64,000 nt of DNA from assembly GCF_964355755.1 (NCBI RefSeq), contig NC_092673.1, forward strand, positions 19,217,648 to 19,281,647, written 5' to 3'. Shown here piece by piece: positions 17,505-56,816 of the stretch. Position numbers and translations under genes: made by a program. The notes under the pieces are model-generated. The model worked only from the letters and a program-made list of their open reading frames with translations. It did not search any database and had not been told where the DNA came from. How positions within the stretch are numbered: position 1 is the first letter of the stretch; every line of letters starts with the position of its first letter. This DNA comes from Antedon mediterranea. Lineage: Eukaryota; Animalia; Echinodermata.

Positions 17505-17770
17505 TTAACAGTGTCTTTCCTTGTGATCTATTGTTTTTGTTGGGAAATTTCCCGAATAGCGTACTGTCTGTCCGTCTGCTGCTGCGTTTGTTGACTGAGT
17601 ACGAGATTTTGTGACTTTCTTATGCACATACCAGATACAGCTACCACCAACAGTTACTAATAATCCAATACCATTGCGAATTCTTGCTGCTAAGCCGTCA
17701 TATATAATAATTAAGATGACAAAGGTTGCGAATAGAATAAACCAAATTACAGTAACTATCCACCAGTGAA
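17505..17770 (-). CDS. Candidate terminal exon encoding one strong and one weaker transmembrane segment; possible alternative 3' exon of the ROCO gene
   Basis: Acceptor ttttgattacag, phase 1: (V)HWWIVTVIWFILFATFVILIIIYDGLAARIRNGIGLLVTVGGSCIWYVHKK...HC*. The phase matches the DED exon donor. The link to the gene is inferred. Confidence 0.4.
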
Positions 17771-19736: not shown

Positions 19737-22700
19737 TTAATCTATAATGTGTTGTTTCACAGGTCTACCTGAAAAAGAAATGAACAAAATAGATTTGGAG
19801 AAAGTCAAAGAAAAACTTTAACTTCAAGTTATTTTAAGGTTGCCTAATAAATACAGATTTTAACTGCATAAACAACTACATTCACTTAACATTGAAAGGT
19901 AATAATCACCTGAAGACACACCTGCATCAGAAGATGCACCTGCACCTAAAGACACACCTGCACCAGAAGACACACCTGCATCAGAAGACACATCTGCACC
20001 AGAAGACACACCTGCACCAGAAGATGCGCCAGCATCAGAAGACACATCTGCACCAGAAAATGCGCCCGCACCAGACGACACACCTGCACCAGAAGACACA
20101 CTTGCACCAGAAGATGTGCCTGCAACAGAAGACACACCTGCACCAGAAGATGCGCCTGCAACAGAAGACACACCTGCACCAGAAGACACACCTGTATCAG
20201 AAGACACACCTGCACCAGAAGACACACCTGCATCAGAAGACACACCTGCACCAGAAGATGCGTCTGCACCAGAAGACCCAGATGTGCCAGTACCAAAAGA
20301 CACACTTGCACCAGAAGACCCAGAAGTGCCAGTACCAAAAGACATGCCTGTACCAGAAGACATATATACTTATTTAGAATACATATAATTATGTAGAATA
20401 TGACTACTGGATGACTTCTGGATTTTTCAATCCACCTACAGTAGGATGGATGATGATTAAAAGAAGTGTTTCAGTAAGCTAATTGTCATTGAAACAAACT
20501 CTTAATTAGGAAATGTAAATAAACTGGGATAGGCAGAAGTGTTGATCTCTATATTTTTACAACATAATCTAAACTTAAGTTTATAATGGTTTAAGTGTCC
20601 GGCTGCATAAATTGGCACTGAGGTGGTGATGGGTACGCTGTCAACCTGTGGCTTTCTTATAAAACTTAATGATCCTCTTGCAATAGTAAAGGTTTGAACC
20701 AGCATCAGAGTAGATACTAATTTGACCCTGAAATGGTATGCTGGACCTTATAGGAATTAAGAGTCATTCACAAATTTAAAATGCAGATTATTATTATGTT
20801 CCAAAGGTTTGGGTCAATCTGATTTATAGGGATAATATCATGGAAAACAAACATACTTTTCATTTCAGCTCATTTTCAATTGGACTCATTGAGCATATTA
20901 TTGTTATTTTACTAACTTGTCATTCAATTCAGCTTAATTTCCATTTAACCGAATGTTGGTTGATATCCTTAATCCACTATAATAGCAGACAAACAGGGAC
21001 ATCATAATAATTTGAATCTGCCTAAAATGTTTAATTTGTTACAGTACTTTTACTTGATTGAAGTGTACTACAGTATGTACTGAATATGTTTTAACAATGA
21101 ACCATGATTTAAACAACAAATACAAACAAAAGCCAACCAACCATCAAAGAAAATCTTGGTGACCCACATCATTCCATTTCTTTCTAAAACATCAAGAAAT
21201 TTGATCATTTTTGTGAAATCCTCATCAATGATCCCTTTGTGTTCAAAGTCCATAATCAAACTCCAGCTGTTTGAATATCTCTTTACAAATTGTTTGTTGT
21301 AGAGGAAATCAAGTTTTGATACTTCATCCTCATTAAGTTCTTCTCCCAGCTGATAAATATTCTGTCTGAAAGGTGTCAACATCGATGATACCACATGCTC
21401 CTTAATGTTTTCTGGAGGTTGATTCTCAACATTTGACTTAAAGCCAAACTGCTGGGTTACCTTTACTGTGTCATACAGAAGAGTAAGATTTGATGGACTC
21501 AAACTTCCAGAGGCTGTTAAATCATGTAGTAGATCCCAAACACTATTAGCTCTCTCCACCTCCACTCTAGATTTCTTCAGATGGTCTTTGTATAAAAGTT
21601 TCAATTTCTTGAGATATCCAAGTCGATCATACCACTCTGCTGTATCAGTCAACAGTTGCCAGAAATCCTCATCTGAGATGTCTATAATGCAAAGACATAC
21701 AACCATTATAATTCAGGTTTTAAAAACATGCACAAAAATGTCAGTAGCTTCATCTATATTAATAGTAGAAAGTAGAATGAAAGAAATAACAATTTCTAAA
21801 AAGATCTTTAAGAAAACAGATATTATTAAAGATATTTAGTCTGAAAAACAATGTATAAACATTTTTTTTGTGTCATTTTAATGTCACATATAGCTATTCA
21901 CTTTGAGTTTGATCAAAAATTGGATTGAAAACCACATAATTTATACCTGAATAAAAATAGTAAAATTGTGGGTTTTTGGTTGAATTTACGAAAGACAGAC
22001 CATAGACCATTTCTTTTGTAGCTCCGTGTTTATAACAGTTTGTTTTTGTTTATCATTATTCTAAACTAATGACAATGGCTGGTGATTATTTGGGAAATTG
22101 ATCTTTGAACCATTTACCTAAACCCAGTTAATATTTGAATATTATTCGATAAGAATAAAACAATTGATGACCATTTTGGCACACATAATTAATGTCTACT
22201 TTACCTTGGTTTGATTCTTCTTTCTTTGGAGGTTTTCTTCCATCTTGAAAAGTAGTAGATATATGAAAAATTGTAAACAACAATAACCTTTTTTTTAAAT
22301 TGTAAACAAGTTTAAAATTACTAGCTCAGGTTCACTATTTAAGATTTTACACTGTCGTGATATTATTGTTTTTTTACCATTTTATCTTTATTATTGTCAG
22401 CGCATGATTTATAATTGATGAGTTCAGTTCTTTTCTGAAAGTCACTGCTTTTAGCCATTATTTACTTTGATTTCACCATAAACAATTCATGCACTTTCAG
22501 ATCGATGTGCCAAGAGCAACTGAGTAGCTTGTTTTTATATCAGCAATGACATTTACAATAGATACAGTAAAAACATGAAGTAATTGGTAAATATCTTGAA
22601 ATAAGGTCAAAATTATTCAAGCTTCACTGGAGTTAGCTCCATGGGGCTAGTTAAGGTGGAGTATGCACGCCATACGTGTGAAGAGGCCCTAATTATTTAT

Positions 22701-25700
22701 TGCTACTGCTGAATCTCTTCCTAACCTTATGTCTCTGTTATTATTCTTACCTCCTAATAGCCGCTTGTAACGTGTAACATCCATCGTAAAAAAAACGCCA
22801 GTTTTGGAGCATGTCAACTTCTCATGCTGGAAATCTTGAAGATTTTGAAAGTGTTTCTTTTCTGATGTATTACTACATACGTCACAAAGTATGCATCTCT
22901 CAACTTTAATCCCTCTTCTACCACCATCTTTAGAAGATTCAAATGACTTCTGGATGGTTAACAAAACCTAAAGATACAAATTGAACGTTGATTTCCAACA
23001 ACAAACAGTTAACTGCAATTGACCAATATAACACAATATAGCAACTTTTGAATCAGCAACACACATTTTGAAAATGTTGTGTTTGTTAACACTTTCAATA
23101 TAACAACAGTTATGCCTACAAGAGGGAAAAGAAAACAATAAATAAAATAAAAATCAAAATCAAAATTGTACATATACAATCTTTACCAAAGATCTGACAC
23201 CATTAACTATTTATCCAATATTGCTGTGCTATTGATCTGCATCTATATTGCAACGAAAAGTAAATTACAACTAGTTTAACAACTGTACTCATACTTTAAA
23301 TTGATATGATATTAAGATTATATCATTATAATTTTTTAAGATCTAGAATAAGATGGAGACATAAATCAAACATTATTATTTAATATTATAATTATTAAAA
23401 ATATTAACTACAATTATACATAAAGTTTAGTTCTATAAGTGGTAGATTTTTATTTTAGCAATAGTCAGCTGTTTTTCATAAAAAAATAACAAACCTCTGT
23501 ACATGCTTCAGAAGAGGGTTCCTCATTACTTGTTTTATTAGGAACATTTGTTCTTTTAATAGTCACCTGAAAAAAAAAAGTTTTCATGTTTTAATATCTG
23601 AATTTGAGTTTATCCTTAAGTTAGATTATGACTTAATCACAAGAAAATATATGATACAGTACCTTTAACAAGAATTTTCTTTCATCCTCCGTAGTCACAA
23701 ATTTGACAAGAGATAAGGTCACATGATGATCTTGGTCGAAGTAAAGTTCAGCATGGTTATACAGGAGTATTGGGTCAACTCCTTTCTTTTGAAATTTGTT
23801 GAGGAAATCAATAATCATATATGGAAACAATACATCTGGCAGATATCCCTTAAAGTCGTAATAGATACTGATAGATTGTGAATCATCAGGCACTGGCTTC
23901 ACTTCACTTGACGTCTTGAAAGCAAGGCGTAGTGGCACAAAGAATGAGCGCTTTCCAACAGATTCCTGAAATTGTTGATTTGTAAAATTGCATTCAGATT
24001 TCTTTTAGAAAATTAAATATCATATCCTGTACATGTTAAAAACATCTTTCAGTAGATAGTTTAATCAAAATATGTCATAACCCTACAAATATTTTGAAAT
24101 TTTATGTAAAATTTCACCAATTATTATTATCATACCAAAACAATTTTTGTTTACATAATCTTGCATACAAAACATGTTAGAAAAGATAACTGAATAAAAC
24201 CTACTGTAGATGTACTTGCCACATCTTGGCTGCTGATTGTCTTCCTCTCACAAATGAAACCTAATTGAATCATCAGTGCTACAAGGAACTTAAAATTCTT
24301 TCCATCGTCAACTTTACGCTCTTTCCATAATTTTCGCAACAACTTTTCTTCCAGTATGCCATTGTCAAGCTTACCAAACGCATCAATATACGTGGCTGGC
24401 TAAAAAACACCACCAATTAGCCATACTTAGTATTTTGTGTTTATTAAGTTATCAAACAATTTAGAGTCTAAAGGGATGCACATGTATTAAGACTTGTAGA
24501 TGCAATGACATGGCTTACATCTAATATACAATATACCCCTCAATGTTAAATTAAGGAAACTGTCAGACATTGCTTTTGATACTACAGCACCTATAGGAAT
24601 TCAAATGTACACAACACTGCATTAACAATTTCATGAGACTACTTACTGGCAATTCTGGTGGAATGACCGTTACAAAAGCAGTAACAATTTCAACCAGCTG
24701 CATCGGATCTAACACCGCCTTATCTTTCAATAATTTGTTGTCAGGCCTGTAAACAATTTCACCAAGATCGTACAAAAAGTTAAGAAGAAAGGATTGTTGT
24801 CTTTCGTCTGCAATACCATTCTTACTTGCCAGCATTTTGAGCTAAAGAAAAAATTGTTTACTATTCAGATACAACTAAAATATCAAAAATATGAAACCAA
24901 AGGTAGGTATACATTTACATCATTAGTTTTGTCCTTTACCGCCTGTAATGTTTTAAAATTTACTTGATAACATTTACTGCATAACTTTGGATCTGAAGGA
25001 AAACGTCACTCTCAGGATGGGGGAAACGTAACTGCGATTTTTCACACAGAATGCATTGTCAATGTTGCAATGCAAATATTCCATAAAAAATACTAGGCCG
25101 ATGTAATTTTTTCAGATAGGAAACCATAACAGCATGAATAGATTATATTATTTTACATTATATCATATTAACATTATTTTACCATTCAGATTTAGAGCAG
25201 TGAAATATGACAAAAATATCAATATTATTATATAGTACTGTAGTTATATATAATAGTGGGTAGATTCTTTTGTTTATACTTTTTTAAATACTATATTTCC
25301 AACATATTTCTATTCTGAAAACAAAACACTGAGGAATGATGCCAATTAAATTTACCTCTTCAACTGGACACAAAGAAAAATGTTTTTTTCTCCTTAGATC
25401 ATGTAGATCACATCGAAAACGCATCCACTTTAAAGGAACTTCTTTCTCTAAAGCTTTCATAAGGTCATCAATAACTTGTTTGAGATCACTAATGCTCTTA
25501 TCTGTCGTTTCTTGGCTGTTTTCAACGGCAAAATATACGTTGTACACATGTTTTATAAACTCTTTCTGTTTAAGTGCATCTCGAATCATTTTAAAGGCCT
25601 TCTTTGTCTGGTTGTAAACAATTTAAATAAATGAAAACATGAGGTAAAAACTGTCATTTCTTTTAAATAATATCTAAATACTTCAAGTCCTATTAGAGTA

Positions 25701-28700
25701 CTGTATAGAATACATTCATATAAAAACTTTTGATATGAATGTATTCGATACAGTATTCTAGTAGCTAGTTTCTTTACATTAGCTTTTAGAACAGAATTGT
25801 ATACTTGATTGGTTGCTAATTTTAATAATGTAAATATTAACCTCATCATTTTGTTCTTTTTCAGTCGTACCAAGCTTACCCTTATGTGTACCCACAATAA
25901 GGATAGTTGGTTTGTGAACCTCCTCGTCTTCTTCCACAATACGACTATGAGAATAAACTGACAGGATGTAAGATAATATGAACTGGAGATTGGTCCAATG
26001 ATGTTTACACTTTTCCTGTAAAAAAGAAAGATTAGTATAAAAAACAAAAATCTTTGTTCAATTAAAAATGAAATGAAGAAGTAAATGATTTCTAACCACA
26101 ATTAAAATCAAAATGGTTAGGTTTCAAATATGTAAATGTATGCAGCTCATTTGGAAGGTATGAAATAAAACTCTTTGTAATGCATAAAATATATAGCAAA
26201 ATACTTACTCCATTGGAATCAATATAAACAGCGGGATCATTGAGGTCTACACTTAGGTCGAACACTACAATATAAAGTGCTTGTAATGTCATGAACATCT
26301 GCAAAAATACAATTTGTTTTTATTCAAATATTTGATTAATATGCTTTAAGCAAAGATTGTATAGCACCGCTACGCGGCGCAAGATAGGTGACTGCGCGAC
26401 TATCATTTTATTCTGTAGGTTGTCTTTTGATAATCTGTGTTTATACATTTACTATTGATACTCTTTTTATTAAAGCATTTTTCTAGTACAAATTCATATA
26501 AAACTGTTAAAATCAGTTATGATTGAAAACAGTTACTGAAAATACTTTTTTATTGACGTAGGCAAAATTTGTAATAACAATTTATATAAAGCAGTACCAT
26601 GGAAAGATGTTTGCGATTACTGAATGAACAAATTAAACCTTGGTCATACCATTATGTTAGTATTACAGAGACATTTCCTTTTAACTGTGTATAGTATTTA
26701 AACAATATAATATTAACTTCAAGGGAAATACATATATTATAACTTACCCGATGTATACCATGATATATTAATTGACCTCCATGATCCCAGATGTTAAATG
26801 TTTCTTCCAAGGGGTCCTCCTTTTTTTCCTCAAGTTTCTTGATTACATCTTTATCTAACTGCTGATCTGTATCAAATGTAACAGCTTTAGTAGCTGTATA
26901 AGAACCTGTAGTAGAAACAATTTGGTCACTCTCACCACATGTAAACAAGCATCACTTCTAAATCATTGTAAAAGTCATTAACATATTGTTATAGTTGTTC
27001 TGATTATCATCATTGTTTTAATTGTCATTATCATCATTGCAGTCTTCATTATCATTGTTACACCTAGTCGTTATCATCATTGCAATCTTCATTATCATTG
27101 TTACACCTAGTCGTTATCATCATTGCAATCTTCATTATCATTGTTACACCTAGTCGTTATCATCATTGCAGTCTTCATTATCAATGTTACACCTAGTCGT
27201 TATCATCATTGCAGTCTTCATTATCATTGTTACACCTAGTCGTTATCATCATTGCAGTCTTCATTATCAATGTTACACCTAGTCGTTATCATCATTGCAG
27301 TCTTCATTATCATTGTTACACCTAGTCGTTATCATCATTGCAGTCTTCATTATCAATGTTACACCTAGTCGTTATCATCATTGCAGTCTTCATTATCATT
27401 GTTACACCTAGTCGTTATCATCATTGCAATCTTCATTATCATTGTTACACCTAGTCGTTATCATCATTGCAGTCTTCATTATCAATGTTACACCTAGTCG
27501 TTATCATCATTGCAATCTTCATTATCATTGTTACACCTAGTCGTTATCATCATTGCAATCTTCATTATCATTGTTACACCTAGTCGTTATCATCATTGCA
27601 GTCTTCATTATCAATGTTACACCTAGTCGTTATCATCATTGCAGTCTTCATTATCATTGTTACACCTAGTCGTTATCATCATTGCAGTCTTCATTATCAA
27701 TGTTACACCTAGTCGTTATCATCATTGCAGTCTTCATTATCATTGTTACACCTAGTCGTTATCATCATTGCAGTCTTCATTATCAATGTTACACCTAGTC
27801 GTTATCATCATTGCAGTCTTCATTATCATTGTTACACCTAGTCGTTATCATCATTGCAATCTTCATTATCATTGTTACACCTAGTCGTTATCATCATTGC
27901 AGTCTTCATTATCAATGTTACACCTAGTCGTTATCATCATTGCAGTCTTCATTATCATTGTTACACCTAGTCGTTATCATCATTGCAGTCTTCATTATCA
28001 TTGTTACACCTAGTCGTTATCATCATTGCAGTCTTCATTATCATTGTTACACCTAGTCGTTATCATCATTGCAGTCTTCATTATCATTGTTACACTGAAT
28101 CATCATCATTGTTATCATCATTATAGTTTTAGTTGACACTGTCAGAGTAGAGGTAGAAAAGTATGATTGTCACCATTTGTTACACAGGTTAAAGGTTGCC
28201 TTACCTCCACCTCTGATCACATAAATTTAATAATTTTATAGGAAAATTAAAAGTTACTTTAAATTGGAAAATCTAATTAATAATCTATTTATTTCAAATA
28301 ACTACAGCACAAACTTAATATCACAGAAATTGCAAATTAGCTACAAAATGTAATGTATATGTATTATGTAATATGTAATAATAATAATTAGAATTTAATG
28401 GAGAGTTACATACTATCATTTTTGTAATCATTGTTGTCGTTATTTTTGTAATCATCATTGTTGTCATCCTTATTGTAGTCAACAACAATACCATCATCAT
28501 CTTCGACATCATCTGTAGGTGGTTTCATGTCAATCTGATAAATAACACAAAAAATGGATATAAATATGAAACAAATGTTTATTCAAGTTAAATACAGTTT
28601 TGTTTACAATTTAATATAAGAGAAAACTAATATTATCTACCCTCAAACTAAAAAACCAAGTTATTTGTTAGAGTAAATTTTAAAAGAATTGAAGCAACAA

Positions 28701-31700
28701 AAAGAAATGAAATAGCCGCTCATAATTTCTCATTGATTAATTTAGAAAGAAAGCCTAAGTGACTGGTTTGCAATAGTTAAAAAGTCCTGTAGGTACTAAT
28801 ATTTTATTTATTTTATGTTTTTATTACACTAATATTGACATTATGCTTACAATTTTCTTTTCTCTTAGTTTGTCAGTGACCATTTTTGTATACTGTTTTG
28901 AAGGATTACCTGTAGAGAAATTATTAATTAATTAAAATTACAATTACAATACATCAACAAACAATAGCTAGTAACCGACCGAACACATCCAGGCAAGAAT
29001 GTCCTTCTAAAAACCTTTTTACCTGAGTCAATATCATTCCGAGAACCATCGTCTACACTTCCTAGAGGGGAGCGAGCGAAGCGAGGTCACCCTCTAGTAA
29101 TTAGAATTTAAGGAAAAGTTACATACCATCATTTTTGTCATCGTTATTGTATTCATCAAGAATACCATCCTCATCATCTGTGGGTGGTTTCATGTCAATC
29201 TGACACATAAAACAAAAACAACAAATGATTCAGATTCAGATAATATTTATTTAGATAATAATGAATGAATATATACAAAATGGAAAAAAGATATTAAAGT
29301 GAACATAGATAAAGCAGTAATTGGTAGTCATTATTATCATGGATCCCTTCTAGATAAATGGATATAAAAAAAGAAATAAATGTTTATTAAAAGTTAAATA
29401 CAGTATTGTTTACAATTTAATATAAGAGAAAACTAATATTATTTACTCTCAAAAACAAAACCAAATTATTTTTAAGAGTAAATTTTAAAAGGATTGAGAA
29501 AAAAAAAAGAAATAGCTGCTCATAATGCCTCATTGATTCATTTAGAAAGAAAGCCTAAGTGACTGGTTTGCAATATAGTCCTGTAGGTGCTACTTTATTC
29601 ATTATTACTGACATACGCTTACAGTTTCCTTTGCTCTCAATTTGTCAGTGACCATTTTTGTATACTGTTTTGAAGGATCACCTGTAGAGAAAGAGAAAAG
29701 TTTGTCCATATTATTTCAGCACATACGTTCATATGTGACTATACTTTGGATATTTTACTACTGTCAAAGTAAAATTACAATTACAGTACATCATCAAAGA
29801 ATGTAACATACAGTACAGTAACTTGCGCGTTATAAAGGGATCATAGAGTAACAATTGTAATGTATGTGACACCATACTACAGTTGTATGCATTGAATTCA
29901 ATTCTATGTCTCCATTTCATTGTGAACTTGTCTGTGTCTATGATAATAATTATTATTGATAATATTGTTACATAACGGTATGATGGTGGGAAGAGTAATA
30001 TGCTAAATGTATTCATGTTTACCACTATCAGCTTTAGCCTCTGTCCATGTTGTGCTTGCTGTTCTTATCACCGCTATGCCATCTGTAACTACATGCTTTT
30101 CCTCAAATCTGGCAAAAATATTTGAAACCAACTATGAACTTCAGTCATTTTAAGTACAGGTACTGTAAAACATGCACTTTTCTCCTTTTACTTCAAAACT
30201 ATTTTAATATATTCATTAATTATACATTTAGGAAGTCAAGTTATCCGACCATTCGTATGATCTTTTTTTTAAATACAAGCCTAAAAGTAAATTCTATAAT
30301 CAATAGAAAATTTGATGGTGTTATGATTATTGTAGAAACCGATTTATATATTTATAGACGTTTTTATTCAACTATTGTTATCTATCACTGCAATATTTAA
30401 AAAGTGGTAGTTTATCAAAAACAAATCAATAAAAGTTGGCTGGCTTGTAATTCTTAGTTGACTCACAAATATTTTGTAATGTTCATTTCACTGTTCTACT
30501 ACTACTACTACTTACTCTTTTCCAAGACATGCATTGATGAGGCATGTTTTACCCACTCCTTCTTGCCCAATTACTTTAAGCATTCCAAGATTGACTGGAA
30601 CGGATCCATCTTTCAAGGCTTCATTGTATGCTTTCTGAAAATCTAATTCACGTGCAGCAATATCTGAAAATTGAATCAAGATTTTAATAGATTTTTTAAA
30701 CATCTGGAGTAAATAAAGTAAAAAAAAACTAGAATTAGGTTATATGCATTGATTTAAATAAAGATAATTGATTTTTAAAAGATATATTGATTGATTGATT
30801 TTCTCAGAATCTTTAATTATTTATAATATAGGATCTTGCTAACGCGAATACAATAGCCGGTATCACAATCCGATCAAAGATCCCTCCGCGTATAATGTCA
30901 TACAACATTGTTACATAGTAATAAAGACATTACTTACTTTTTATCTAGATTTCATTATAAATTATGTGTATAATCTATACACTAACAAATAAAATTGAAC
31001 AAACAATACGGATAATAAAAAAAAATCTTATTTCCTTTCCCAATGTTAGACTCGATCTCGGTACCTTGAATGCCATAGACACGAGCACAGACCACCGAGC
31101 CATACACAACTGACTAAAAGTTGTAGAAAGATTCCTCCGTGTATTTACTATGCAGTAACCACTTTGGCGCAGATAGATTATTACATAACGCATTGAATTA
31201 TAATTTTTTACTATGATGACATCTTTAAAAATGTTAAAAAACGATGCACTGTCAAACTATATACTTTTAACTTTAATATATGAACTTTTATTTTGAAGGA
31301 AGAAAGTTAAAGTTTGTTATTTTGGCCTAAGAAAATGTCAGAAAATTTTTGATTGTCGAAATAAATTTTTTTGAATTTAAAATGCAATTAACGATGACTT
31401 TATCAACTTTTGTACTCTTAATTTCATAATAAATCATACATATGATACATACACTTCAAGAAAATGAAATAAAAAATATGTGTTCCCGAGCATTCTTGGA
31501 AATGGAAACAATCAACTGTTACTATTTATGATAAATAAAATCTCTCCATTTGTTATTTGTTATCAGTTGGACACTTTTTCGCATTTTTACAGTACCGCTC
31601 AGAAATGATTTTTTAAATAACATTAGCGTCTAATTCTCTCTTTACTGAAATCCCATTTTAATCACAATTCTGTTAAATTATATATAGATACCATCATAAA

Positions 31701-34700
31701 ACATACAGCAGCTCTTATTCTTAAACTTACCACTCTCTGGCTTAAGAAGTTTTGTTTTCTGTTTGTCACTTGTCGGTTTCTGAAATTGCTCATCAACAGT
31801 ACTTGGTAAATCTAAAAAAATGCACAAAACAAAAATATTACATATTATATATTTTCATAAAAAACACTATATTAAAAGTCATAGCTTTTTTTTTTCAATG
31901 GTATAAGGTTATATAAGGCTCTGTGTGATACAAAGCCTTACAAAAACTTGTGGGTGATTGTGTACAAGCAATCATTCATTCTGAATAATAATAATAACAA
32001 TGTATATTTTTAACTACAATGTATACAGTTAACAACTACAGTTATTAATTTAAATTATGTCCTAAAAAAAATTGTGGAACTCAAACTCATCCAAACATAT
32101 AGACGTTTGCAACATTTTTTGACAGCGATCCTGAATCTAAATCGTTGAAATTATAGCAATATACGGTTGATTAGCATGGTTTCAATGGGTAAAGTGCAAA
32201 TAAAGTAATCCTGAAATGAATAACTGGTATGATTCAGAATGAGGCAGTAGGAAATGCGATTAAAAACATCTATTGTAAGTTTTCAATATGCTTTGAACTT
32301 TTTGAATGTTTTTATTTATATTCTGTTTTATGACCAGAAATCAATTTTGTTTTTATACCTGTTTGTCAAAACACAATAAAGATAACTCGAGCCCAATCAT
32401 GGTTTAGGCTGATGTCAAACAATTTTGTCAATATAGACCTGGAATTGCACCTTTAAAGACTTACAATAAGGGCGCTTTTCTGGTCCTACTAAAACACGCT
32501 CAGAAAACGTGCCCACTGTCGCCAGTTGTTAGTTTCCCATTATGTGTATACGCTACACTTTTGTAAATATTAATTGTTAAAAAATAAAAAATTTAAACAT
32601 CAGCCTGGAATGTACAATGTGTCATACTTGCTTGCTTGCATAATTGATTAAAAACTCTAAATGTTTGTATAATATAAATATTTGTAAAACATACACTTTA
32701 TACACTTGGTAGAGCTTAGTTATACTTTGAAGGGCTTGGTGTTTAGAAGAACACCGCCCCTCCCCCCACAACCAATGTAATGAATATACAGTACAATTAG
32801 TTATTAGCAGTACAGCCAAGGAATATTTTAGCCTATTGAAGCAACGGTATATAATATAATATATATTATTATTTAGTTTCCAATTATTAGCGCATGTAAA
32901 AATAGGAAACCATTAACGCTCCTATTTGAATGTTCAATTGGAATACAACAAGGGTCACCCCTGCCATTATCTCTATTTAATATATTTATGAATTACTAGC
33001 TAAATCAAAATAACGAAAAAATACCATTCGGGGATTGCTTTATAAACCATCTGCTATATGCTGCTGATTTATTACTATTCGCAGACACAGTAAAGGTTTA
33101 CAAAATTTAATAATTATATTGGAAATATTTTGTGACACATGGGGTCTTAGTGTAAATGTAAACAAATAAAAAATAATGGTATTTAAAAAAGGTGAAAAAT
33201 TAAGAAAATATGAAAAATGGTACAGTATTACATAAACATTAAAATGGAAGTTGTTAAATCGTATACTTACTTGGAAGTGGTTTTCAATTCAAATGGTAAG
33301 TGGAATAACACAATTGAAAACAATTTTCAAAAAGCAAATAACGTACGTACTAACAATCAATTAATAGCAAAACAAAATACCTACCAGAGAATATATGGAA
33401 ACACATTTTTGACAAAGTTTTACCAATTTTAATTTACGGGAGTGAGACATGGGGCTTTTCGAATTTATCACCAATTGATCATTTACAGACACGTTTTTCA
33501 AGATTTATTTTAGGCATTGGAAACAGCGCACCCAGCGTGGCTGTTAGATCAGAATTAAGCAGACTACGCTTAAACATTGATTGCTTTATTTCTATTATTC
33601 GTTATTGGTTACAAATCACTGAAATGGATAAAAATAGATTTCCTTTTAAATGTTACACGTTTCAACTAAGAAAAACTAATAAAAATGAACATTGTTGGGC
33701 TAAACAAGTTAACGATTTGCTTTGTTCCACTGGCTATCTCTACATCTGGTACGATCAGGCTATATAAACTATATAATAATAAATAAACTGCGAGTACATT
33801 GTTTCTCTCATTTTATCATAAATTACCATAAAACGTACATCTAAGACAAGGAATAACCTGGTTTAATGTTTTTAAAGTAATATTCCATTATTTTTACAAA
33901 ACGTCGAAAATTGTAAGGAAAGGGTCTTTGAAATAGATTTTGAACTCTTACCTAATGGTTTAATCTTGTATGTATTGACTAAGAAAGTTCCTTAGACTAT
34001 AAAAGTTTGTTCACTTTGTCATACATTACTATCAGTTTTGGTTCTGTATTCTCAACCTTTTTTAGTAGGCCTACACCAAGCCAAGGATAAATATTTGCAA
34101 TTTAATTCGTTTATGCAATATTCAATAGATATTGAATAAATATTCTTCACACATATTAAAAATACATAAAATAATAATTATATAAACATGTAAGATAATA
34201 ATTAATAAAACATAGTATGTGTGGAAGGAAACCTTAAAAGTATAAAACTTTAAGCCTAGGTTGGGAAGAAAAAGAAACAAAATATGAATCCAATATTCTA
34301 TTATTCTGTGTGTAAGTACTCTACTGAAAGCTCATTAATTTATAACAACTTTTACAATTATTTAAGCGTTTATGCTCAAATATTACTTATTATTTTGTGC
34401 CTATTTGCATAAGAAGTTGCAAGATAATACAATTGTAGGAGCCAAGGTAAAATACATTATGTATGATGCTTAATTTTACATACAGAGAAATAGAATTCTT
34501 AAGCTGGCTTAAAGTATGTGAAGAAAATTCATTCATTGTGGAAACAAAAAATGGGATTAACAAGAAAATTAGATTTTTAGTCACGTGCAACGCCACTCTA
34601 CAACTCACTATGTCGGTCGGTTGGTAAACACTAACTTGAGCAAGCGACTGCAGACATCTATATGGCCTTGTTAAATTCAATATTTATCTCCTCCTATCGT

Positions 34701-37700
34701 AAATTGTTTGCCTCGATTGCGAATACATATTTTAAATAATACCATTATATATAAAATAGATTACATTTAAAAAAAAAATATTCTACATTTACATTTATAT
34801 GCAATTAATAAAGTTCAAATATTCCTTAACAATGCGCATCCCGTGTATTTGTCTATACAGGATTTTTATTAATTTTATTAATTTATTTTTTGTATGTTTT
34901 TTTTGTAACTAGCTTATAGTGGTCCTTTTATCACAAGTCCCTTTGGGTTTCTTGGAGGTCCTTTTCATCTTCACATCTTTAATTTGTTTATGTATAATTG
35001 TTTTGATGTATTGATGAATAAAGAGATTGATTTGATGTGAAAAATGACGTTCCATAAAAAAAAAGTGTGGCCAAATTTATTCAATATTGTTAATTCAAAG
35101 GAATTTTAAAGTTTGCATTTTTGTGTATTTTTATCGTAATGGCAAAATAATTTTTCTAATTTATTTGCAATTTTCAAATCATAAAAAATAAGGTTTTTAC
35201 ATCTTGCAACATATCACAACTTCCATGTTTACTACAATCCCAGTGGATTATTTAATCTATTGCCATCTGAACCTGTGAATGATATCATAAATGTTAATTT
35301 TCTTTATCTGGACAGTCTTCTTCATTTGGGACAAAAAATCAAATCTTTATCGTTTGTAATGAAAACTAGTTGATTCCAAAATTTTAATAATTAAAACTTC
35401 ACTTACTTTTAAAGAAGTTTAAAATTTCAGTTTTTCTCTGGTACCCTATCCACCTGTTACTTTCTAAAACAGAGACAGGTGTATTTCCATCCTATTAAAA
35501 AATGGGTGTAGTTACTTAGTAGTTTTTGAGAAATTATTGATATACAATATAACACACTTTAATACGCATCACATACATACAGTCATGGCTCAAACATTTA
35601 CCATCTAGAGATTGGATGAAAGAGCATCATGTGATAACACGTAGATTTACTATTTTTTAACATTGGTTGTAAATTAGGACGTGAATAGAAATTACTATTT
35701 GCCAATAAATGACATCAACTTGTACAGTGCGCCACCTATAACTCCTGTATCCAAACCAAAACTTAAGCGCTGCCGTTTATAGTCTACCGCCTTCAACATT
35801 GAGAGAGAGAGAGAGAGATAAATTGAATAAAAGTTTACTTTGGAACAGTAGGTAAATGTGTTAAAATGTTTGAGCCATAATATAAAACAACAAATAGTTT
35901 TACTATAAACTTTCAAAGAAAATAATATTTGGATACTATCCAGATACAAATGAAATATTAAAACAACAACAACACATTACAATTATAGTTGACTTATAAA
36001 TGAATATCTAAATCAAAACAAACTTGTTAGAATGTGCTATGTGTAAAAAGAGAAAAATGTGAAAAAAATCAAACACTTGAGAATTCTATATCTGTAAGTC
36101 TGATTAAATAATACTACTCTTTGAGGTAGTAATACTATTGATTAATATGGAGGCTAATTGATACTGAAGTTGAAGTTTATAAATACTGATAACAATAAAA
36201 TGTGAAATTGTCCTGACAATTCTTTGTAAGCCTACATTACCCTATTTTGCAATGCTGCAGATATACCATAATATGAGACAATACAGTAAAAATTACTGCT
36301 AAATAATGTGGTAAACCAGAACAAACTAGATTTGAACTCGTCACTTTGACGAGTTCGGGTTATCCGCGCAAACGCAACATGCACATATTTTAAACTATAT
36401 TATGAACTTCGACAATTATTATGCCATCCTATGACATGAATTAAGAATGTTTACAGTGCTGAATTGTACCTATTTTGTAGCATACAGCATATTACAGTGT
36501 TTACAGAATACACTGTATGTTATATACAGTGTAGAATAGACGAAATTACGAGACCCATCTTTTAAATCCAATTATTAACACGATGACGTCATCAAATTGG
36601 CATATAAAGATAACAATTTTAGAAGATAATTATCTAAATAATTACATTAATACAAATTTTAAGAATTTTGGGCACGTGAAAGTGAGATGCGCTCTCGTTT
36701 AAACGCAATGAACGTTTACGCAAGAGATGAAAATATGACTTTTTGAATTTAACTGGCCATATGATGACATCACAACATCTGATTGGCAAAATATTCACAT
36801 GAATTCGTATCTACAATCCAATATCTTCCAGAAAACGTTTTAATCATGATTATCACTTTTTATTCTGACGAGCTATAACCGATTGAAATTTACTGTAAAG
36901 ATAAAAATAAGTGACCCAAATTATTTATATTTTTAGACATGATGACGTCATAAAAATTAAAATATTTTTAACTCATGCGAAAGATAGTTGATTGACCTAG
37001 ACAGTATTAGAATATATGAGAAAATGGAATACGTATAAGCGATATGCGCTCTATTTAATGTAATGAGCAATAACGAAACAGTCAAAAATCCAATATTTTA
37101 CATTTGTGTGGCCATACGATGACGTCATAACATCTGAGGGGTAAAGATTGTGCATGAATTCATATCTACAACATATCTGCTTACATATTAAATTAAAAAA
37201 ATTGGGGGTAACGGTTGATCCTGAGGAGCTATAATAGATTAAAAATAGGCATAATTTTGACAATATGTTGTCACTTTTGCAACTAAAACGCGCGCAAATG
37301 GTGTAAATCAACGTGTTCGTATGACGTCATTTTAATTTGAAATGATGTCAATCTTTTTTAAAATGACTAAGAAAGGCTGTAAAATCATAATTCAAGAGAA
37401 AAACACATGATTTTCATGCTCCGTGCGCACCTTACGCGTAATTTTTTTTGCGCGCGTGGGAATTTTTTACATGCTTAAAATGTCATGATCAGCGTAGAAA
37501 GTTGATTAGAAATTAATTTTGCGCATTTTGAATTTTTAAATGCGCGTGCGCGCGTAACTTCTTGTAAAACATGCCATTTTTAATCCATAGAAAGTTTGCC
37601 CATGATATGACTTAAATTTTCACCAAGTGTCAAAACAAAATAACTTTTGGTTTATAATCTATGACCAATCATTGAAATTCATAAAATCGCGCGTAAGTCA

Positions 37701-46700: not shown

Positions 46701-49700
46701 TAAAAGTTGATAAAATTACTAAAAAAAGCTATAAAAACATAAATCACGAGAAAAAAATATGTTTTCAACGCTACATGCGCACCGCGCACGTAAAAATTTG
46801 CGGGCGCGTGGGAATTTTTGACATGCTTAAAATTACATGAAACGCGTAGAAAGTTGATTAGAAATTAATTTTGCGCATTTTGAAATTTTAAATGCGCGTG
46901 CGCGCGTAACTTTGTGTGAAACATGCCATTTTTAATCCACAGAAAATTGACTCTTGATATAAATTAAATTTTCACCAAGTCTCAATACAAATCGACTTTT
47001 GGTTTTTAATCTATGATCAATCATTTAAATTCATAAAATTGCGTGCAAGTCACGTTGCGCAACTCTGACGTTTTTCAAAAATAGGAGGTGCACAACTTCA
47101 CGTAAATGTCTATATTTTGACAAAGTTACGATATGTTCTGTTTACACATTTTAGAGAAACAGGGCTCACAAAAAAAGGAAGAAAGACAGAAGAATAATAC
47201 AGAAAAGGAAAAAGATCCCATACAATAACAAGGAGTTATCCGCCAAGTGCGGATAACTAATAAAATTGAAACAGGACGATTACAAGGAGTTATCCGCTAC
47301 TAAGCGGATAACTAATAAAGATGAAAAAAAAAAAGATTTTTACAATAACAAGGGTTATCCGCAACTTCTAAGTTGCGGATAACCAAATAGAATAGAATGT
47401 TAGCCTATTACACTAGCAAATCCCTGTACATTTACCTTATTTTGCAATGCTACTGGTGTCCCATGCTGAAAGAGACAAGTCACTATTTCTAAGGTAGGTG
47501 CAGTATATCCAATCCCCAGATATGAATGTAATGGAGTGTCACCATACTGGAAAGGAATCGTAATGAAGTTTATAAATACTGACAACAGACATTATGTGAA
47601 ATTGTTTGTTTTTTGGTAAATACAAACAACAACAATTACTGCTAAATATTGTGGTAAATAATCATAATTATTATTATTAATAAATGAGTAGAACAAAATA
47701 GAATGGTTTACCACAGCATATCTATAGAATGTTAGCCTATTACACTAGCAAATCCCTGTACAATACCTTATTTTGCAATGCTACTGGTGCCCCATGCTGA
47801 ATGAGACAAGTCACTATTTCTAAGGTAGGTTTAAATCCACTCCCCAGATATGAATGTAATGGAGTGTCACCATCCTGGAAAGGAATCATAATAAAGTTTA
47901 TAAATACTGACAACAGACATTATGTGAAATTGTTTGTTTTTTGTCAATACAAACAACAACAATTGCTACTAAATATTGTGGTAAATAATCATAATTATCA
48001 TTATTAATAAATGAGTAGAACAAAATAGAATGGTTTACCACAGCATATCTATACAATGTTAGCCTATTACACTAGCAAATCCCTGTACATTACCTTATTT
48101 TGCAATGCTACTGGTGCCCCATGCTGAATGAGACAAGTCACTATTTCCAAGGTAGGTCTATATCCTCTCCTCAGATATAAATGTAATGGAGTGTCACCAT
48201 TCTGGAAAGGAATCATAATGAAGTTTATAAATACTGACAACAGACATTATGTGAAATTGTTTGTTTTTTTTGTCAATACAAACAACAACAATTGCTACTA
48301 AATATTGTGGTAAATAATCATAATTATCATTATTAATAAATGAGTAGAACAAAATAGAATGGTTTACCACAGCATATCTATAGAATGTTAGCCTATTACA
48401 CTAGCAAATCCCTGTACATTTACCTTATTTTCCAATGCTACTGGTGCCCCATGCTGAATGAGACAAGTCACTATTTCTAAGGTAGGTGTATATACACTCC
48501 ACAGATAGTAATGTAATAGAGTTTTATCATCCTGGAAAGGAATCATAATCAAGTTTATAAATACTGACAACAGACATTATGTGAAATTGTTTGTTTTTTG
48601 TTAATACAAACAACAACAATTGCTGCTAAATATTGTGGTAAATAATCATAATTATCATTACACGTCACTATTTCTAAGGTAGGTTGTGTATATTCAATCC
48701 TCAGATATGAATGTAATGGAGTGTTACCATCCTGGAAAGGAAAGCATTTTTTTGTAAGGTAAGAGAGGGAGCAGGTTATTAATTAATAATTATTTGTTAT
48801 TAAAATCAGATTCTATTAATTTTTTGTAACATAAACCTTTTTTATTTGTTATTTTATTATTAATCAATGTAGTCCCATTTTATTTCATCTTTACAATTAA
48901 TTAGACCATTGTCAATCATTGTTATCTTTACAGCTACATATGACCAATTTATATTTGTTTTACGGTCAAAAATATTTAAACAAAATTATACTGATTCACC
49001 TGTATAAAAAATTACAAGTAGATTGTTTTTGTTCATTAAGAAAAAAGATAAATGTTATATGATGGATAACTGTATACTTTAAATCAGTTATCATAAATCA
49101 TATATAACTGTTTAGTTATTATTTTAATTTGGTTTCTTTTAATAAAATTTGATTTTTGTTAATGGGCTTACTTTAGCCTATTACTTAATGTAAGTTATTA
49201 TTCATGTACACTGCCTTATTTTGCCATGTTACTGAACTACGCTGTGTGAGACATGTTACTATTTCTAAGGTAGGTACTGAATACATATACAAATATGCAT
49301 GTAATGGAGTGTCACCATCTTTCTTTCGCAATGTTGCTGGTGTATAATATTGACAACAGACATTATGTGAAAATGGGGTTTTTTTGTCAACCCAAACCAT
49401 AGCAAGAATTACTGCTAAATAATGTGGTCAATAATAATAATAATGAGAACAAAATAGAATATGGTAGAGAAAGTTGGTACATCCTTTCAGTACTGATTTT
49501 TAACACCCAATGAAACCAATATCATAATTAAGTTAAGTTAGATATTAACGATAACAAATTTAATTTAAACCATTTGCCTTGATGAAAATCATATCATATC
49601 ATGAAGCCCGATACCATCCCATCATCAAATGTACCAAGACAGGAATTTGGTGAACAATACCATGTAATAAACAAAATTAAGGTAATTCTCAGGATGACAA

Positions 49701-55700: not shown

Positions 55701-56816
55701 ATTATTATTTTTAGCCTAATGTGGTTAATCAGTACATGCATGTTATACCTCCATCATCAGTGTGTATTTATATTATTATTTATAGCCTAATGTGGTTAAT
55801 CAGTACGTGCAGGTTATACCTCCATCATCAGTGTGTATTTATATTATTATTTTTAGCCTAATGTTGTTAATCAGTACATGCAGGTTATAGCTCCATCATC
55901 AGTATGTATTTATATTATTATTTTTAGCCTAATGTGGTTAATCAGTGCATGCAGGTTATACCTCCATCATCAGTGTGTATTTATATTATTATTTTTAGCC
56001 TAATGTGGTTAATCAGTGCATGCAGGTTATACCGCCATCATCAGTGTGTATTTATATTATTATTTTTAGCCTAATGTGGTTAATCAGTGCATGCAGGTTA
56101 TACCACCATCATCAGTGTGTATTTATATTATTATTTTTAGCCTAATGTGGTTAATCAGTACATAGAGGTAAGCTTCCATCATCAGTGTGATAATGCAAAA
56201 GAATTGTAATTCATTAAGTAAAAAAGCTTTAAACTATTAAATAAAATTACATCCTCTATAATTTTAAACTTTAATGAAAAGAATTTCTTCTTTGATAATA
56301 TTATAAAAATATATCTGTTTTTATACCTCATTGATAGATTTCAGAAGACCTGGTTGCGTCTTACAGATTTGTTTAATTGTTTTCAAATCATTCCTTGACA
56401 AAGCTTCTACCAAATGTTTCCTGTCAAAATGTAAGAAATAATCCATTTTTACCCATGTATTTAATGAGAATGATGATTGATGGAAATACTGTATTATTAT
56501 TATATTTAATGAGAATAAGTCCTTTAATTGTAATATTTATGATTTCATAATTTTTAAAGAAAGAAAGAAATAATTTTGGATTTTATAATCTCTTAAGAAA
56601 GTTTGAAGTATTTTTCTCAAAAGAATATCTTAAAATCAAAGTGTTTTCTTTTTGTTTGAACTATAAATTCTGATTATAAAGTATGTTATATGTATGTCAA
56701 TATAACTATTCAAACATTTTAATTTGTTTTTAATTGTTACATATTTCAATAATATCAACACATATTGGAGCTGGTTATTTTTGTTTGAAATAATTGTTAA
56801 AAACGTACCTTTCCAT
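19737..56816 (-). CDS. Multi-exon ROCO-family gene: ankyrin repeats - Roc GTPase - COR - tandem DED (about 1170-1320 aa)
   Basis: Exons in transcript order, all phases compatible: 56816-56809, 56420-56327, ANK 48531-48424, 48201-48094, 47874-47767, 47546-47436, then 35491-35407, 31811-31731, 30663-30516, 30108-30023, 29681-29623, 29199-29127, 28909-28851, 28534-28414, 26905-26748, 26298-26209, 26015-25842, 25607-25356, 24841-24647, 24399-24205, 23965-23663, 23566-23495, 22967-22751, 22243-22205, 21681-21142, (20368-19910), 19768-19737. GT-AG boundaries and no internal stop in the reconstruction. The first and last exons are least certain. Confidence 0.85.
19910..20368 (-). repeat. 18-bp coding-type tandem repeat; candidate phase 1-1 exon encoding (SSGAGV)n
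   Basis: 459 nt between aataag| and G|gtgatt keeps frame between the DED exon and the last exon. The acceptor is weak (AAG, poor pyrimidine tract). Confidence 0.55.
21142..21681 (-). CDS. ROCO gene exon: tandem death-effector-like domains
   Basis: 540-nt phase 1-1 exon. FWQLLTD...DLLHDLTASGSLSPSNLTLL and FRQNIYQLGEELNEDEVSKL...LIMDFEHKGII both follow the DED pattern. Confidence 0.75.
22751..25607 (-). CDS. ROCO gene exons: end of Roc (G5, FAVEN) and COR domain
   Basis: YFAVENS, VPLKW, LLNFLYDLGEIVY, VLDPMQL, LMIQLGFI, FFVPLRL, and a C-terminal CDVC...H...C motif. Confidence 0.85.
25842..30663 (-). CDS. ROCO gene exons: Roc small-GTPase domain with a long acidic insert
   Basis: P-loop GQEGVGKT, switch I TDGI, G3 IWDHGGQ..YH..H..F, YIVVFDL, G4 IVGTHKG. 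Confidence 0.88.
27028..28095. repeat. 43-bp intronic minisatellite (~24 copies)
   Basis: Unit acacctagtcgttatcatcattgcartcttcattatcawtgtt; period 43 (27061, 27104). Confidence 0.95.
28380..29690 (-). repeat. Tandem duplication of a two-exon block, with introns, inside Roc
   Basis: GDPSKQYTKMVTDKLR vs GNPSKQYTKMVTDKLR and IDMKPPTDD... both occur twice. Introns 28555-28850 and 29357-29622 align. Confidence 0.9.
29030..29097 (+). mobile_element. Helitron 3'-terminal fragment
   Basis: Hairpin ctagaggg...gcgagcgaagcgag...ccctCTAG followed by T. Shares cgagaaccatc with the Helitron at 52820. The 5' end is not located. Confidence 0.6.
32890..33770 (+). pseudogene. Decayed non-LTR retrotransposon (LINE) reverse-transcriptase fragment
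   Basis: Frameshifted GIQQGSPL..LFNIFM, LLYA(A)D, WGLSVN..K, YTYL, YGSETWG and AVRSELSR motifs. Confidence 0.8.
34574..34672 (+). mobile_element. Very short Helentron-associated (DINE-1-like) remnant
   Basis: ttttagtcacgtgcaacgccact degenerate 5' hairpin, gtcggtcggttgg microsatellite, 3' gcgact...ggccttgtt. Confidence 0.45.
36241..36283 (-). pseudogene. Degenerate ankyrin-exon remnant (3' half)
   Basis: Minus strand tgtctcata..tatggtatatctgcagcattgcaaaatagg|gtaatg resembles CLI.HG..VALQNK plus donor. Flanked by the cassette intron motif attactgctaaataatgtggtaaa. Confidence 0.6.
36325..47384 (-). mobile_element. Nest of seven ~1.5-kb non-autonomous Helentron/Helitron-type (HINE, DINE-1-like) elements
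   Basis: Seven 3' ends at 36325, 37843, 39358, 41000, 42517, 44039 and 45683 (minus strand: subTIR gcggataac, hairpin aactcgtcaaagtgacgagtt, CTAG-T). Seven 5' subTIR hairpins gttatccgc-N-gcggataac at 40917, 40973, 45591, 45657, 47234, 47288 and 47353. No TSD; inserted in an A/T run; no long ORF. Confidence 0.82.
47436..49319 (-). CDS. Tandem array of single-ankyrin-repeat exon cassettes (4 intact, 1 truncated, 1 with defective splice sites)
   Basis: Phase 0-0 exons of 108-111 nt (xGDTPLHxYLxxxxxPTLEIVTCLIQHGAPVALQNK) with ttccag acceptors and gta donors, spaced ~327-331 bp. Truncated copy at 48664-48731; divergent copy at 49215-49319. Confidence 0.92.
50329..50598 (+). mobile_element. tRNA-derived CORE-type SINE with L2-like 3' tail, 5'-truncated
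   Basis: B-box-like gtttcgaatcc. tgtatccttaggcaagatactttac...ctctctccatccaggtgtata is CORE-like. Tail gcgcttagag...aggcgctatataaat...(tat)n. Absent from the paralogous intron segment near 48980. Confidence 0.75.
52820..53508 (-). mobile_element. Non-autonomous canonical Helitron (689 bp)
   Basis: Minus strand begins TCTATATA and ends in hairpin ctagatggtacg..gcgaagc..cgtaccatCTAG. Inserted between A and T with no TSD; removal restores an exact satellite unit. Confidence 0.9.
53813..55442. mobile_element. Non-autonomous PIF/Harbinger-like element
   Basis: TIRs GGGCCTGTTTCTGCTGCATA and TATGCAGCAGAAACAGACCC (19/20). 3-bp TSD AAT. Many subterminal AACCGGTT motifs. Confidence 0.85.
54348..54966. 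repeat. Long (~180-bp arms) imperfect inverted repeat inside the Harbinger-like element
   Basis: 54348-54530 is the approximate reverse complement of 54788-54966 (e.g. ctcagaatgttgcaa and ttgcaacattctgag). Confidence 0.85.

What the first reader, a model, noticed from the sequence alone, without database searches (positions are those of the whole stretch)
19737..56816. ANK-Roc-COR-DED-DED architecture: kinase-less ROCO arranged as sensor-switch-death effector
Seen: a hand-spliced open frame links the ankyrin array, Roc (GQEGVGKT, TDGI, WDHGGQ), COR and a tandem DED-like exon. Established: DAPK1 has kinase-ANK-Roc-COR-death domain, and tandem DEDs in caspase-8/cFLIP polymerise through DED-DED contacts. 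Inference: the protein works like an NLR, with a GTPase switch in place of NACHT. Ligand binding to variable ankyrins would drive COR dimerisation and recruit DED caspases or FADD.
Basis: partly seen in the sequence, partly recalled or inferred. Interest (0 to 1): 0.8.

Follow-up and report, generated by a model that had tools for sequence, protein, structure and literature searches.

The report
Mosaic feather-star Roco death-effector receptor
A feather-star gene lines up exons for fast-changing ankyrin repeats, an LRRK2-type switch without a kinase and a caspase-8-like pair of death-effector domains closely related to those of crinoid NLR immune proteins, so it likely encodes an immune sensor that would trigger cell death, a new variant of a design already proposed for bacteria, algae and simple animals.

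Summary
Architecture confirmed. 25 minus-strand exons, all GT-AG and phase-matched, give a stop-free 1177-aa ANK-Roc-COR-DED-DED frame. One RNA-like run splices Roc-to-COR introns; ANK-Roc and COR-DED joints are untested. The DED exon folds as a caspase-8/cFLIP tandem DED. Relatives are crinoid; annotated Antedon proteins share the architecture. New here: (1) a mosaic: Roc-COR from one subfamily, ankyrins from another, and a DED pair nested among NLR DED pairs (100/99; ROCO DED pairs as one clade rejected); (2) ankyrin exons change amino acids about four times faster than their introns change bases, mostly on the binding face; (3) a missed transmembrane exon at 17770-17505 is a likely alternative end; (4) the guanine-reading G4 Asp is Gly (63, 70). 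The NLR-like reading is plausible but untested and already proposed for Roco proteins (PMC8195603, PMC4104024); ligand-driven dimerisation is unsupported, since GTP monomerises a bacterial Roco (PMC5714945). The scan earlier noted kinase-less Roco-death-fold genes in a sponge and placozoans. New variant of a known kind.

The parts
56809..56816 (-).
   Evidence: Joined to acceptor at 56420 reads open; matches start of P0005. Not tested in RNA.
56327..56446 (-). N-cap exon of the ankyrin array (alternative ATG at 56446)
   Evidence: 65% to P0005 1-34, 38% to P0052 1-40; GT donor, phase 0.
49215..49319 (-). Ankyrin exon copy without AG acceptor and with GC donor; probable pseudo-exon
   Evidence: Pfam Ank E 0.048.
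48660..48731 (-). Ankyrin exon copy that lacks its 3' half and donor
47436..48531 (-). Four intact one-repeat-per-exon ankyrin exons (48531-48424, 48201-48094, 47874-47767, 47546-47436), phase 0-0, on a 327-bp tandem unit
   Evidence: amino-acid changes in excess of intron changes.
35407..35491 (-). C-cap exon of the ankyrin array (phase 0 to 1)
   Evidence: 56% to P0005 107-133; GTAAGT donor.
31731..31811 (-). Linker exon
   Evidence: 80% to P0006, P0007, P0008.
30516..30663 (-). Roc G1 exon (GQEGVGKT)
   Evidence: 100% to P0006-P0008; Pfam Roc E 0.07 alone.
30023..30108 (-). Roc switch I exon (TDGI)
28414..29681 (-). Acidic insert inside Roc: a duplicated exon pair (29681-29623 + 29199-29127; 28909-28851 + 28534-28414)
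   Evidence: the second pair and its joint to the G3 exon are nearly identical in annotated P0011.
26748..26905 (-). Roc G3 exon (WDHGGQ)
   Evidence: 100% to P0011; its donor is spliced to 26298 in two contigs of run X1.
25356..26298 (-). Rest of Roc: exons 26298-26209, 26015-25842 (G4 reads THKG, no Asp), 25607-25356
   Evidence: joint 25356 to 24841 in one contig of X1.
22751..24841 (-). COR: exons 24841-24647, 24399-24205, 23965-23663, 23566-23495, 22967-22751
   Evidence: Pfam COR-A; family profile aligns to CtRoco and LRRK2 COR.
22205..22243 (-). Short phase 1-1 linker exon
   Evidence: inferred from splice signals only.
21142..21681 (-). Tandem DED on one symmetric (phase 1-1) 540-nt exon; FL motif in DED2
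   Evidence: 67-72% to DED pairs of NLRs P0001, P0003 and of P0002, P0004.
19910..20347 (-). Candidate Ser/Gly/Ala-rich linker exon (18-bp in-frame tandem repeat), weak splice signals
   Evidence: resembles the COR-to-TM linker of P0010 (low complexity, weak).
19737..19768 (-).
   Evidence: no homologue support found.
17505..17770 (-).
   Evidence: 92% over 71 aa to the C-terminus of ROCO P0010, 76% over 38 aa to P0011; reads open from the DED exon.

Best explanation
The locus holds an intact exon chain for an ankyrin-Roc-COR-tandem-DED protein of a crinoid ROCO expansion, and it likely works as an intracellular immune sensor whose variable ankyrins would read a ligand and whose nucleotide switch would release the DED pair to nucleate a caspase-8-type DED filament, possibly from a membrane anchor. 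Shown: domain order, folds, open frame, mosaic ancestry, excess ankyrin replacement changes, a phase-compatible TM exon. Inferred: one transcript from ANK to DED; exon shuffling as the route by which the symmetric DED exon moved between NLRs and ROCOs (direction unknown); a resting COR dimer changed by nucleotide loading (by analogy with CtRoco the active step may be opening of the dimer, not its formation); recruitment of a DED caspase, FADD or the near-identical DED pairs of NLRs. The G4 Asp-to-Gly change means the nucleotide may not be GTP only.
For: Open 25-exon frame, collinear with annotated P0002; spliced joints in X1 at 26749-26298 and 25356-24841, absent from runs X2-X4. DED pair: AlphaFold pLDDT 88.5, pTM 0.84; all Foldseek rows shown are caspase-8, cFLIP or vFLIP tandem DEDs, TM up to 0.71; 11 of 11 PDB sequence hits are caspase-8/cFLIP, with FL on F122/L123, the motif needed for chain growth (PMC3477315, passages). 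DED tree: window + P0002 + three NLR pairs + P0004 form a 100/99 clade; the 32 ROCO C-terminal pairs as one clade are rejected, p-AU 5e-54; pairs of the window's closest Roc-COR kin are 19-22% identical and are rejected as a clade with it, p 4e-7. Ankyrins 49-56% to P0051, P0052, P0054, whose Roc-COR is 26-29%. Ankyrin exons: 20 replacement changes in 81 sites against 9 in 165 intron sites (p 3e-5) and 2 silent in 27; 12 in 81 against 8 in 219 without the first repeat (p 0.001); 9 of 20 fall in the 6 of 36 codons that match library-randomised binding positions (p 0.003; PMC4308713). Family ends vary: DED pair, death, CARD, TIR, HEPN, ZU5, TM.
Against: No RNA was laid on the ankyrin or upstream Roc exons, which lie behind introns of 7.8, 11.9 and 3.6 kb; no COR-to-DED or DED-to-last-exon joint is among the joints shown (18 rows not shown); X1 is only guessed to be RNA and many of its contigs are 90-99% alike, so they may come from paralogues. 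No annotated Antedon protein found joins these ankyrins directly to this Roc subfamily (P0005 has a second Roc-COR between). G4 lacks the Asp in 15 of 15 Antedon members of the subfamily. FL is present in only 2 of 39 related DED pairs. The selection test rests on four repeats and parsimony counts; an earlier version with non-homologous intron bases included gave p 0.086 for variable columns, replacement versus silent alone p 0.06, and repeat 1 has damaged consensus positions. The closest DED sister, P0002, is itself a ROCO, so the pair may be old in this ROCO subfamily. No ligand, partner or immune expression is known.
Confidence: 0.55

Rival explanations
1. A by-product of birth-and-death recombination in a ROCO/NLR cluster: the ankyrin exons form a separate or truncated gene, or the mosaic is decaying and has no function of its own.
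For: Three modules with three ancestries; two broken ankyrin copies; a frameshifted DED relic at about 58850-58600 (30, 33); long repeat-filled introns; annotated paralogues P0006-P0008 start in intron-like sequence rather than in ankyrins.
Against: All 24 introns keep GT-AG ends and phase, with no stop; the ankyrin cap exon keeps a GTAAGT donor in the phase of the next exon; no remnant of another Roc-COR lies between; the same architecture exists in annotated P0029, P0051, P0052.
Confidence: 0.15
2. A cFLIP-like brake or decoy: the DED pair caps or sequesters filaments nucleated by NLRs carrying the near-identical pair, and Roc-COR with its altered G4 is a scaffold.
For: 67-70% identity to NLR DED pairs; fold as close to cFLIP/vFLIP as to caspase-8; G4 Asp lost.
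Against: G1, switch I Thr and G3 are intact; DED2 keeps FL; variable ankyrins fit sensing better than braking.
Confidence: 0.15
3. A non-immune, DAPK1/LRRK-like regulator of apoptosis or membrane traffic (development, arm autotomy, regeneration) that binds host proteins through its ankyrins.
For: Human ROCOs act in traffic, autophagy and cell death (PMC4104024, passages); a TM exon is available.
Against: At least 27 Antedon and 26 Anneissia ROCO clusters with swapped ends and fast replacement change in ankyrins are typical of host-pathogen conflict, not of conserved regulators.
Confidence: 0.15

Closest known systems
Bacterial LRR-AP-GTPase(Roc)-COR-effector conflict systems (Kaur et al. 2021, PMC8195603; passages, section 15, supplement search)
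   Same: Repeat sensor, Roc-COR switch, variable C-terminal effector, many paralogues with different effectors; the paper already treats AP-GTPases as switches parallel to NACHT. Its supplement lists a sponge APGTPase+COR+DED+TRADD-N+caspase protein and a DED+TRADD-N+ankyrin+APGTPase+COR+Death protein.
   Different: Animal, intron-rich, ankyrin sensor; effector is a tandem DED shared at about 70% identity with NLRs; none of the 11 APGTPase rows of that file is ANK-Roc-COR-DED-DED or crinoid (file cut when stored).
Trichoplax ROCO set and Ectocarpus LRR-ROCOs (PMC4104024 section 5; PMC11378527 passages and section 10)
   Same: Kinase-less expanded ROCOs with CARD/death domains (placozoan); one repeat per exon, spare repeat exons, diversifying selection, some TM-like C-termini, proposed immune receptors (brown algae).
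   Different: Ankyrin rather than LRR/TPR exons; tandem DED; demonstrable sharing of the effector module with NACHT proteins of the same genus.
DAPK1
   Same: ANK-Roc-COR-death-fold order (from the finding and recalled; no DAPK1 sequence was compared).
   Different: No kinase or calmodulin region; DED pair instead of a death domain; the ankyrins and Roc-COR group with crinoid-specific families.
Invertebrate DED-NACHT NLRs (amphioxus, sea urchin, Nematostella: PMC2575513, passages; Antedon P0001, P0003)
   Same: Same DED pair as effector; proposed direct recruitment of DED caspases.
   Different: No NACHT or LRR; module order reversed (effector C-terminal); Roc-COR is known to form dimers, not STAND rings.
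Caspase-8/cFLIP tandem DED
   Same: Fold (TM up to 0.71), FL motif in DED2.
   Different: About 14-21% identity; no caspase domain; filament formation untested.

Membership tests
ROCO proteins | Roc domain directly followed by COR in a multidomain protein (PMC4104024) | tested here: met
   Pfam pieces in exons; Roc and COR-A above cut-off in the collinear P0002 (20); family profile best matches bacterial Roco and LRRK2 structures, E 3e-35 to 1e-23 (66).
Guanine-specific G domain | G1 GxxxxGK[ST], G2 Thr, G3 DxxG | tested here: met
   GQEGVGKT, TDGI, DHGG, aligned to CtRoco/LRRK2 motifs.
Guanine-specific G domain | G4 Asp that reads the guanine base (LRRK2 THLD) | tested here: not met
   THKG in the window; THKG in 13 and THKA in 2 of 15 Antedon subfamily members; alignment to LRRK2; role of the Asp from bioRxiv 2019.12.24.888222, passages.
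Guanine-specific G domain | GTP binding and hydrolysis | not testable with these tools
   Needs purified protein.
DAPK1 orthologues | N-terminal kinase domain | tested here: not met
   No kinase match in the window from kinase-bearing relatives P0017, P0033, P0039; first exon matches the starts of P0005 and P0052.
DAPK1 orthologues | C-terminal death domain | tested here: not met
   DED pair instead.
NLR (NACHT) receptors | NACHT NTPase and LRR sensor | tested here: not met
   NLRs P0001 and P0003 match the window only in the DED exon (28, 30, 56).
Tandem-DED proteins (caspase-8/cFLIP type) | Two DED folds packed in tandem | tested here: met
Tandem-DED proteins (caspase-8/cFLIP type) | Exposed FL motif in DED2 | tested here: met
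   Weak sequence alignment to F122/L123 (42); kept in only 2 of 39 family pairs.
Tandem-DED proteins (caspase-8/cFLIP type) | Filament formation and binding to FADD or caspase-8 | not tested
Exon-shuffled ROCO immune-receptor candidates (brown-algal type) | One repeat per exon, spare repeat exons, diversifying repeats, gene expansion | tested here: met
   (ankyrin rather than LRR).
Exon-shuffled ROCO immune-receptor candidates (brown-algal type) | Alternative splicing of the repeat exons | not tested
   No RNA laid on the ankyrin exons.

The most novel reading that the evidence does not exclude
Crinoids run a second, Roc-COR-based receptor family in parallel with NLRs; the two trade one symmetric DED-DED exon and feed the same DED-filament death pathway, and this subfamily's switch has lost guanine specificity (drifting towards an ATP-using, NACHT-like role) while some members are membrane-anchored by a swappable tail exon.
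Probability: 0.2. Interest if true: 0.78.

Novelty: new variant of a known kind. Interest (0 to 1): 0.5.

Why it matters
The function of kinase-less Roc-COR proteins is open, and the idea that Roc-COR can replace a STAND NTPase rests on domain lists. Here an animal ROCO and NLRs of the same genus carry nearly the same effector module, which makes the idea testable with one read-out (DED filament or caspase activation) and shows what Roc-COR does without a kinase, a question that bears on LRRK2 and DAPK1. The subfamily-wide loss of the G4 Asp offers a natural variant for studying Roc nucleotide cycling. If the mosaic is only genomic debris the interest falls to that of an ordinary expanded invertebrate family.

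Tried and rejected
No whole genome is held, so paralogues were counted from database proteins only. Run search: no RNA holder listed; X1 is a guess. Summed contig depth in X2-X4 is much higher on Roc-COR exons than on neighbouring introns; not a copy number, not used. Single-sequence AlphaFold of the DED exon failed (pLDDT 45.8); the 20-row alignment succeeded. A null test of stop-free segments (log10 p about -35) was dropped because the exons were chosen for being open. Candidate extra exons: none convincing in 49400-56320, 35500-47430, 31820-35400, 21690-22200 (16); no homologue of P0010's linker between the SG repeat and the TM exon (60). Pfam gave nothing for the TM exon beyond weak membrane-protein hits. 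Rejected: DAPK1 orthology (no kinase, no death domain); NLR membership (no NACHT); read-through of the DED exon as the main end (possible, one X1 contig of low depth covers 20319-21130, but the phase-1 donor position matches P0002's module end). The first mixture-model Roc-COR tree did not finish its careful search and was redone under LG+G4 on 36 rows, leaving out the unnamed and prokaryote-like rows and most Anneissia subfamily-B rows. Earlier-findings look-ups returned nothing.

Full report
What is there. The window is animal DNA with a multi-exon gene on the minus strand. Reading splice signals around each open segment gave a 25-exon model, 56446 to 19737, in which all 24 introns are GT-AG, phases match and the only stop is terminal: 1177 aa. 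Order: N-cap, four ankyrin exons of one repeat each, C-cap, linker, Roc (G1 at residue 273, TDGI 298, an acidic insert made of a duplicated exon pair, WDHGGQ 462, G4 region 546), COR, linker, and a 540-nt phase 1-1 exon for two DEDs. All four hits for that exon among longer database proteins are from the crinoid Antedon mediterranea, and several exons are identical in protein to Antedon paralogues, so the source is probably an Antedon feather star (inferred).

Is it one gene? Contigs of run X1, which the tool only guesses to be RNA, skip introns 26749-26298 (2 contigs) and 25356-24841 (1 contig); runs X2-X4 show neither joint; a loose end at 23965 matches the end of the previous exon. These contigs may come from paralogues. 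Annotated P0002 is collinear from the G1 region to the end of the DED pair (67% over 935 columns), and P0011 repeats the insert-to-G3 joint. The ankyrin-to-Roc link rests on phase, an intact donor, the lack of another Roc remnant in between and on annotated P0029, P0051 and P0052, which are ANK-Roc-COR-DED-DED in a second subfamily. It has not been seen in RNA.

The 3' end. An intact exon at 17770-17505 is 92% identical over 71 aa to the hydrophobic tail of ROCO P0010 and reads in frame from the DED exon, directly or through an Ser/Gly/Ala repeat at 20347-19910. Six of 29 relatives examined end in such a segment, five of them among the 15 Antedon members of this subfamily, including P0002, which has it after the DED pair. 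A tail-anchored form is therefore likely, alone or as an alternative.

The effector. Pfam DED scores 47.3 bits in two stretches. With a 20-row alignment AlphaFold gives pLDDT 88.5, and every Foldseek row shown is a caspase-8, cFLIP or viral FLIP tandem DED, TM up to 0.71, although E-values are modest (best 8e-4). All 11 PDB sequence hits are caspase-8 or cFLIP and place FL of DED2 on F122/L123, the motif needed for caspase-8 chains (PMC3477315, passages). Against over-reading: only 2 of 39 related pairs keep FL.

A three-way mosaic. The Roc-COR core sits in a 98/99 clade of eight Antedon sequences. The four of these kin that carry DED pairs have pairs only 19-22% identical to the window's, whereas the pairs of NACHT proteins P0001 and P0003, of P0004 and of ROCO P0002 are 67-72% identical. 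In a 39-row tree these form a 100/99 clade, and holding the 32 ROCO C-terminal pairs together is rejected (p-AU 5e-54); holding the window with its Roc-COR kin is rejected too (p 4e-7), as is pairing it with P0002 on Roc-COR (p 0.008). The direction of transfer is not fixed. The ankyrins are closest (49-56%) to P0051, P0052 and P0054, whose Roc-COR is 26-29% identical. P0001, P0004, P0002 and 12 further subfamily members share the same longest-contig length, which suggests one chromosome. The two ROCO searches returned 27 Antedon and 26 Anneissia clusters among 44 and 34 hits, with ends that include DED pairs, death, ZU5, HEPN and TM; brittle star, mussel, coral and sponge hits add TIR, death and CARD.

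The sensor. The four ankyrin exons lie on a 327-bp tandem unit. Their introns differ at 9 changes in 165 sites, silent sites at 2 in 27, replacement sites at 20 in 81 (p 3e-5 against introns); without the first, partly damaged repeat 12 in 81 against 8 in 219 (p 0.001). Seventeen of 20 replacements lie in codons 1-15, and 9 of 20 in the six codons matching positions randomised in a designed ankyrin library, which form the binding surface (p 0.003; PMC4308713, passages). Weaker versions of the test gave p 0.086 (variable columns, with non-homologous intron bases included) and p 0.06 (replacement against silent only). With four repeats this is suggestive of diversifying selection, not proof.

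The switch. G1, switch I and G3 are intact and align with CtRoco and LRRK2. G4 reads THKG where LRRK2 has THLD; the Asp confers guanine specificity and its change alters nucleotide choice in YchF/OLA1 (bioRxiv 2019.12.24.888222, passages). None of 15 Antedon subfamily members has it, while the second subfamily keeps it.

Mechanism proposed. Likely a resting COR-linked dimer in the cytosol or on a membrane; ligand on the ankyrin face would shift nucleotide state, free the DED pairs and seed a filament with a DED caspase, FADD or NLR pairs. Only the parts are shown; every step is inferred (confidence 0.55). Rivals: decaying mosaic, cFLIP-like brake, non-immune regulator (0.15 each).

Prior art. 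Kaur et al. describe bacterial repeat-Roc-COR-effector systems as counterparts of NACHT receptors (PMC8195603, passages and section 15) and list a sponge Roc-COR-DED fusion in a supplement (12 of 13 files searched, one cut). Civiero et al. list Trichoplax ROCOs with CARD and death domains and summarise exon-shuffled Ectocarpus ROCOs (PMC4104024, passages and section 5 part 1). Teng et al. count about forty animal ROCO architectures in a figure that I could not see, so this one may be among them (PMC11378527, passages, section 10, one supplement without hits). DED-NACHT fusions are known (PMC2575513, passages), as are ROCO-TIR proteins in Aplysia (PMC9334734, passages). Five searches (only the top 13-20 papers of each were listed) showed no paper on crinoid ROCO-DED genes or on a DED pair shared between ROCOs and NLRs. 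Earlier notes of this scan report kinase-less Roco-death-fold genes in a sponge and in placozoans.

Verdict. Real, correctly read architecture; a ROCO by domain definition, not a verified GTPase, not DAPK1, not an NLR. The concept is published; the shared DED exon, diversifying ankyrins, G4 change and membrane tail make it a new variant. Interest 0.5.

Noticed in passing
window:9334-16257 (+): Ty3/gypsy-type LTR retrotransposon: LTRs 9334-9508 and 16078-16257 (97% alike), gag-protease frame 9662-10798 and RT-RNaseH-integrase frame 10802-13669 separated by one in-frame stop; it sits inside a 62-bp satellite.
   Followed up: partly
window:1213-3123 (+): 637-codon open frame with MULE transposase and SWIM zinc-finger matches; a further open segment at 712-1068.
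   Followed up: partly
window:58600-58860 (-): Frameshifted relic of a DED exon of the other DED subtype (56% over 32 aa to P0004's first pair), 2 kb upstream of the gene's start.
   Followed up: partly
window:36320-47320: The 11.9-kb intron is a tandem array of about seven units of about 1.5 kb, 76-88% alike.
   Followed up: no
window:33214-33764 (+): Decayed reverse-transcriptase-like frames (label from recall; Pfam gave no match) in the intron before the linker exon; annotated P0007 and P0008 begin in its antisense strand and P0006 in nearby intron sequence, so their N-termini are probably mis-annotated and the paralogues share this intron.
   Followed up: partly
window:27024-28095: 43-bp tandem repeat (25 copies) that resembles the Asp/Asn-rich insert exon; probably a decayed third copy, not in frame.
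   Followed up: no
window:19228-19506: About 280-bp stretch absent from contigs of runs X2 and X3 (skips with TA ends): a possible small polymorphic insertion.
   Followed up: no
P0005: Annotated Antedon protein with two Roc-COR modules from the two different subfamilies between ankyrins and a TM tail; real fusion or annotation read-through unknown.
   Followed up: no
window:6867-7744, 50809-52819, 55443-56189, 56951-57941, 60589-63424: Satellite arrays with periods 69, 71, 71, 31 and 89 bp.
   Followed up: no
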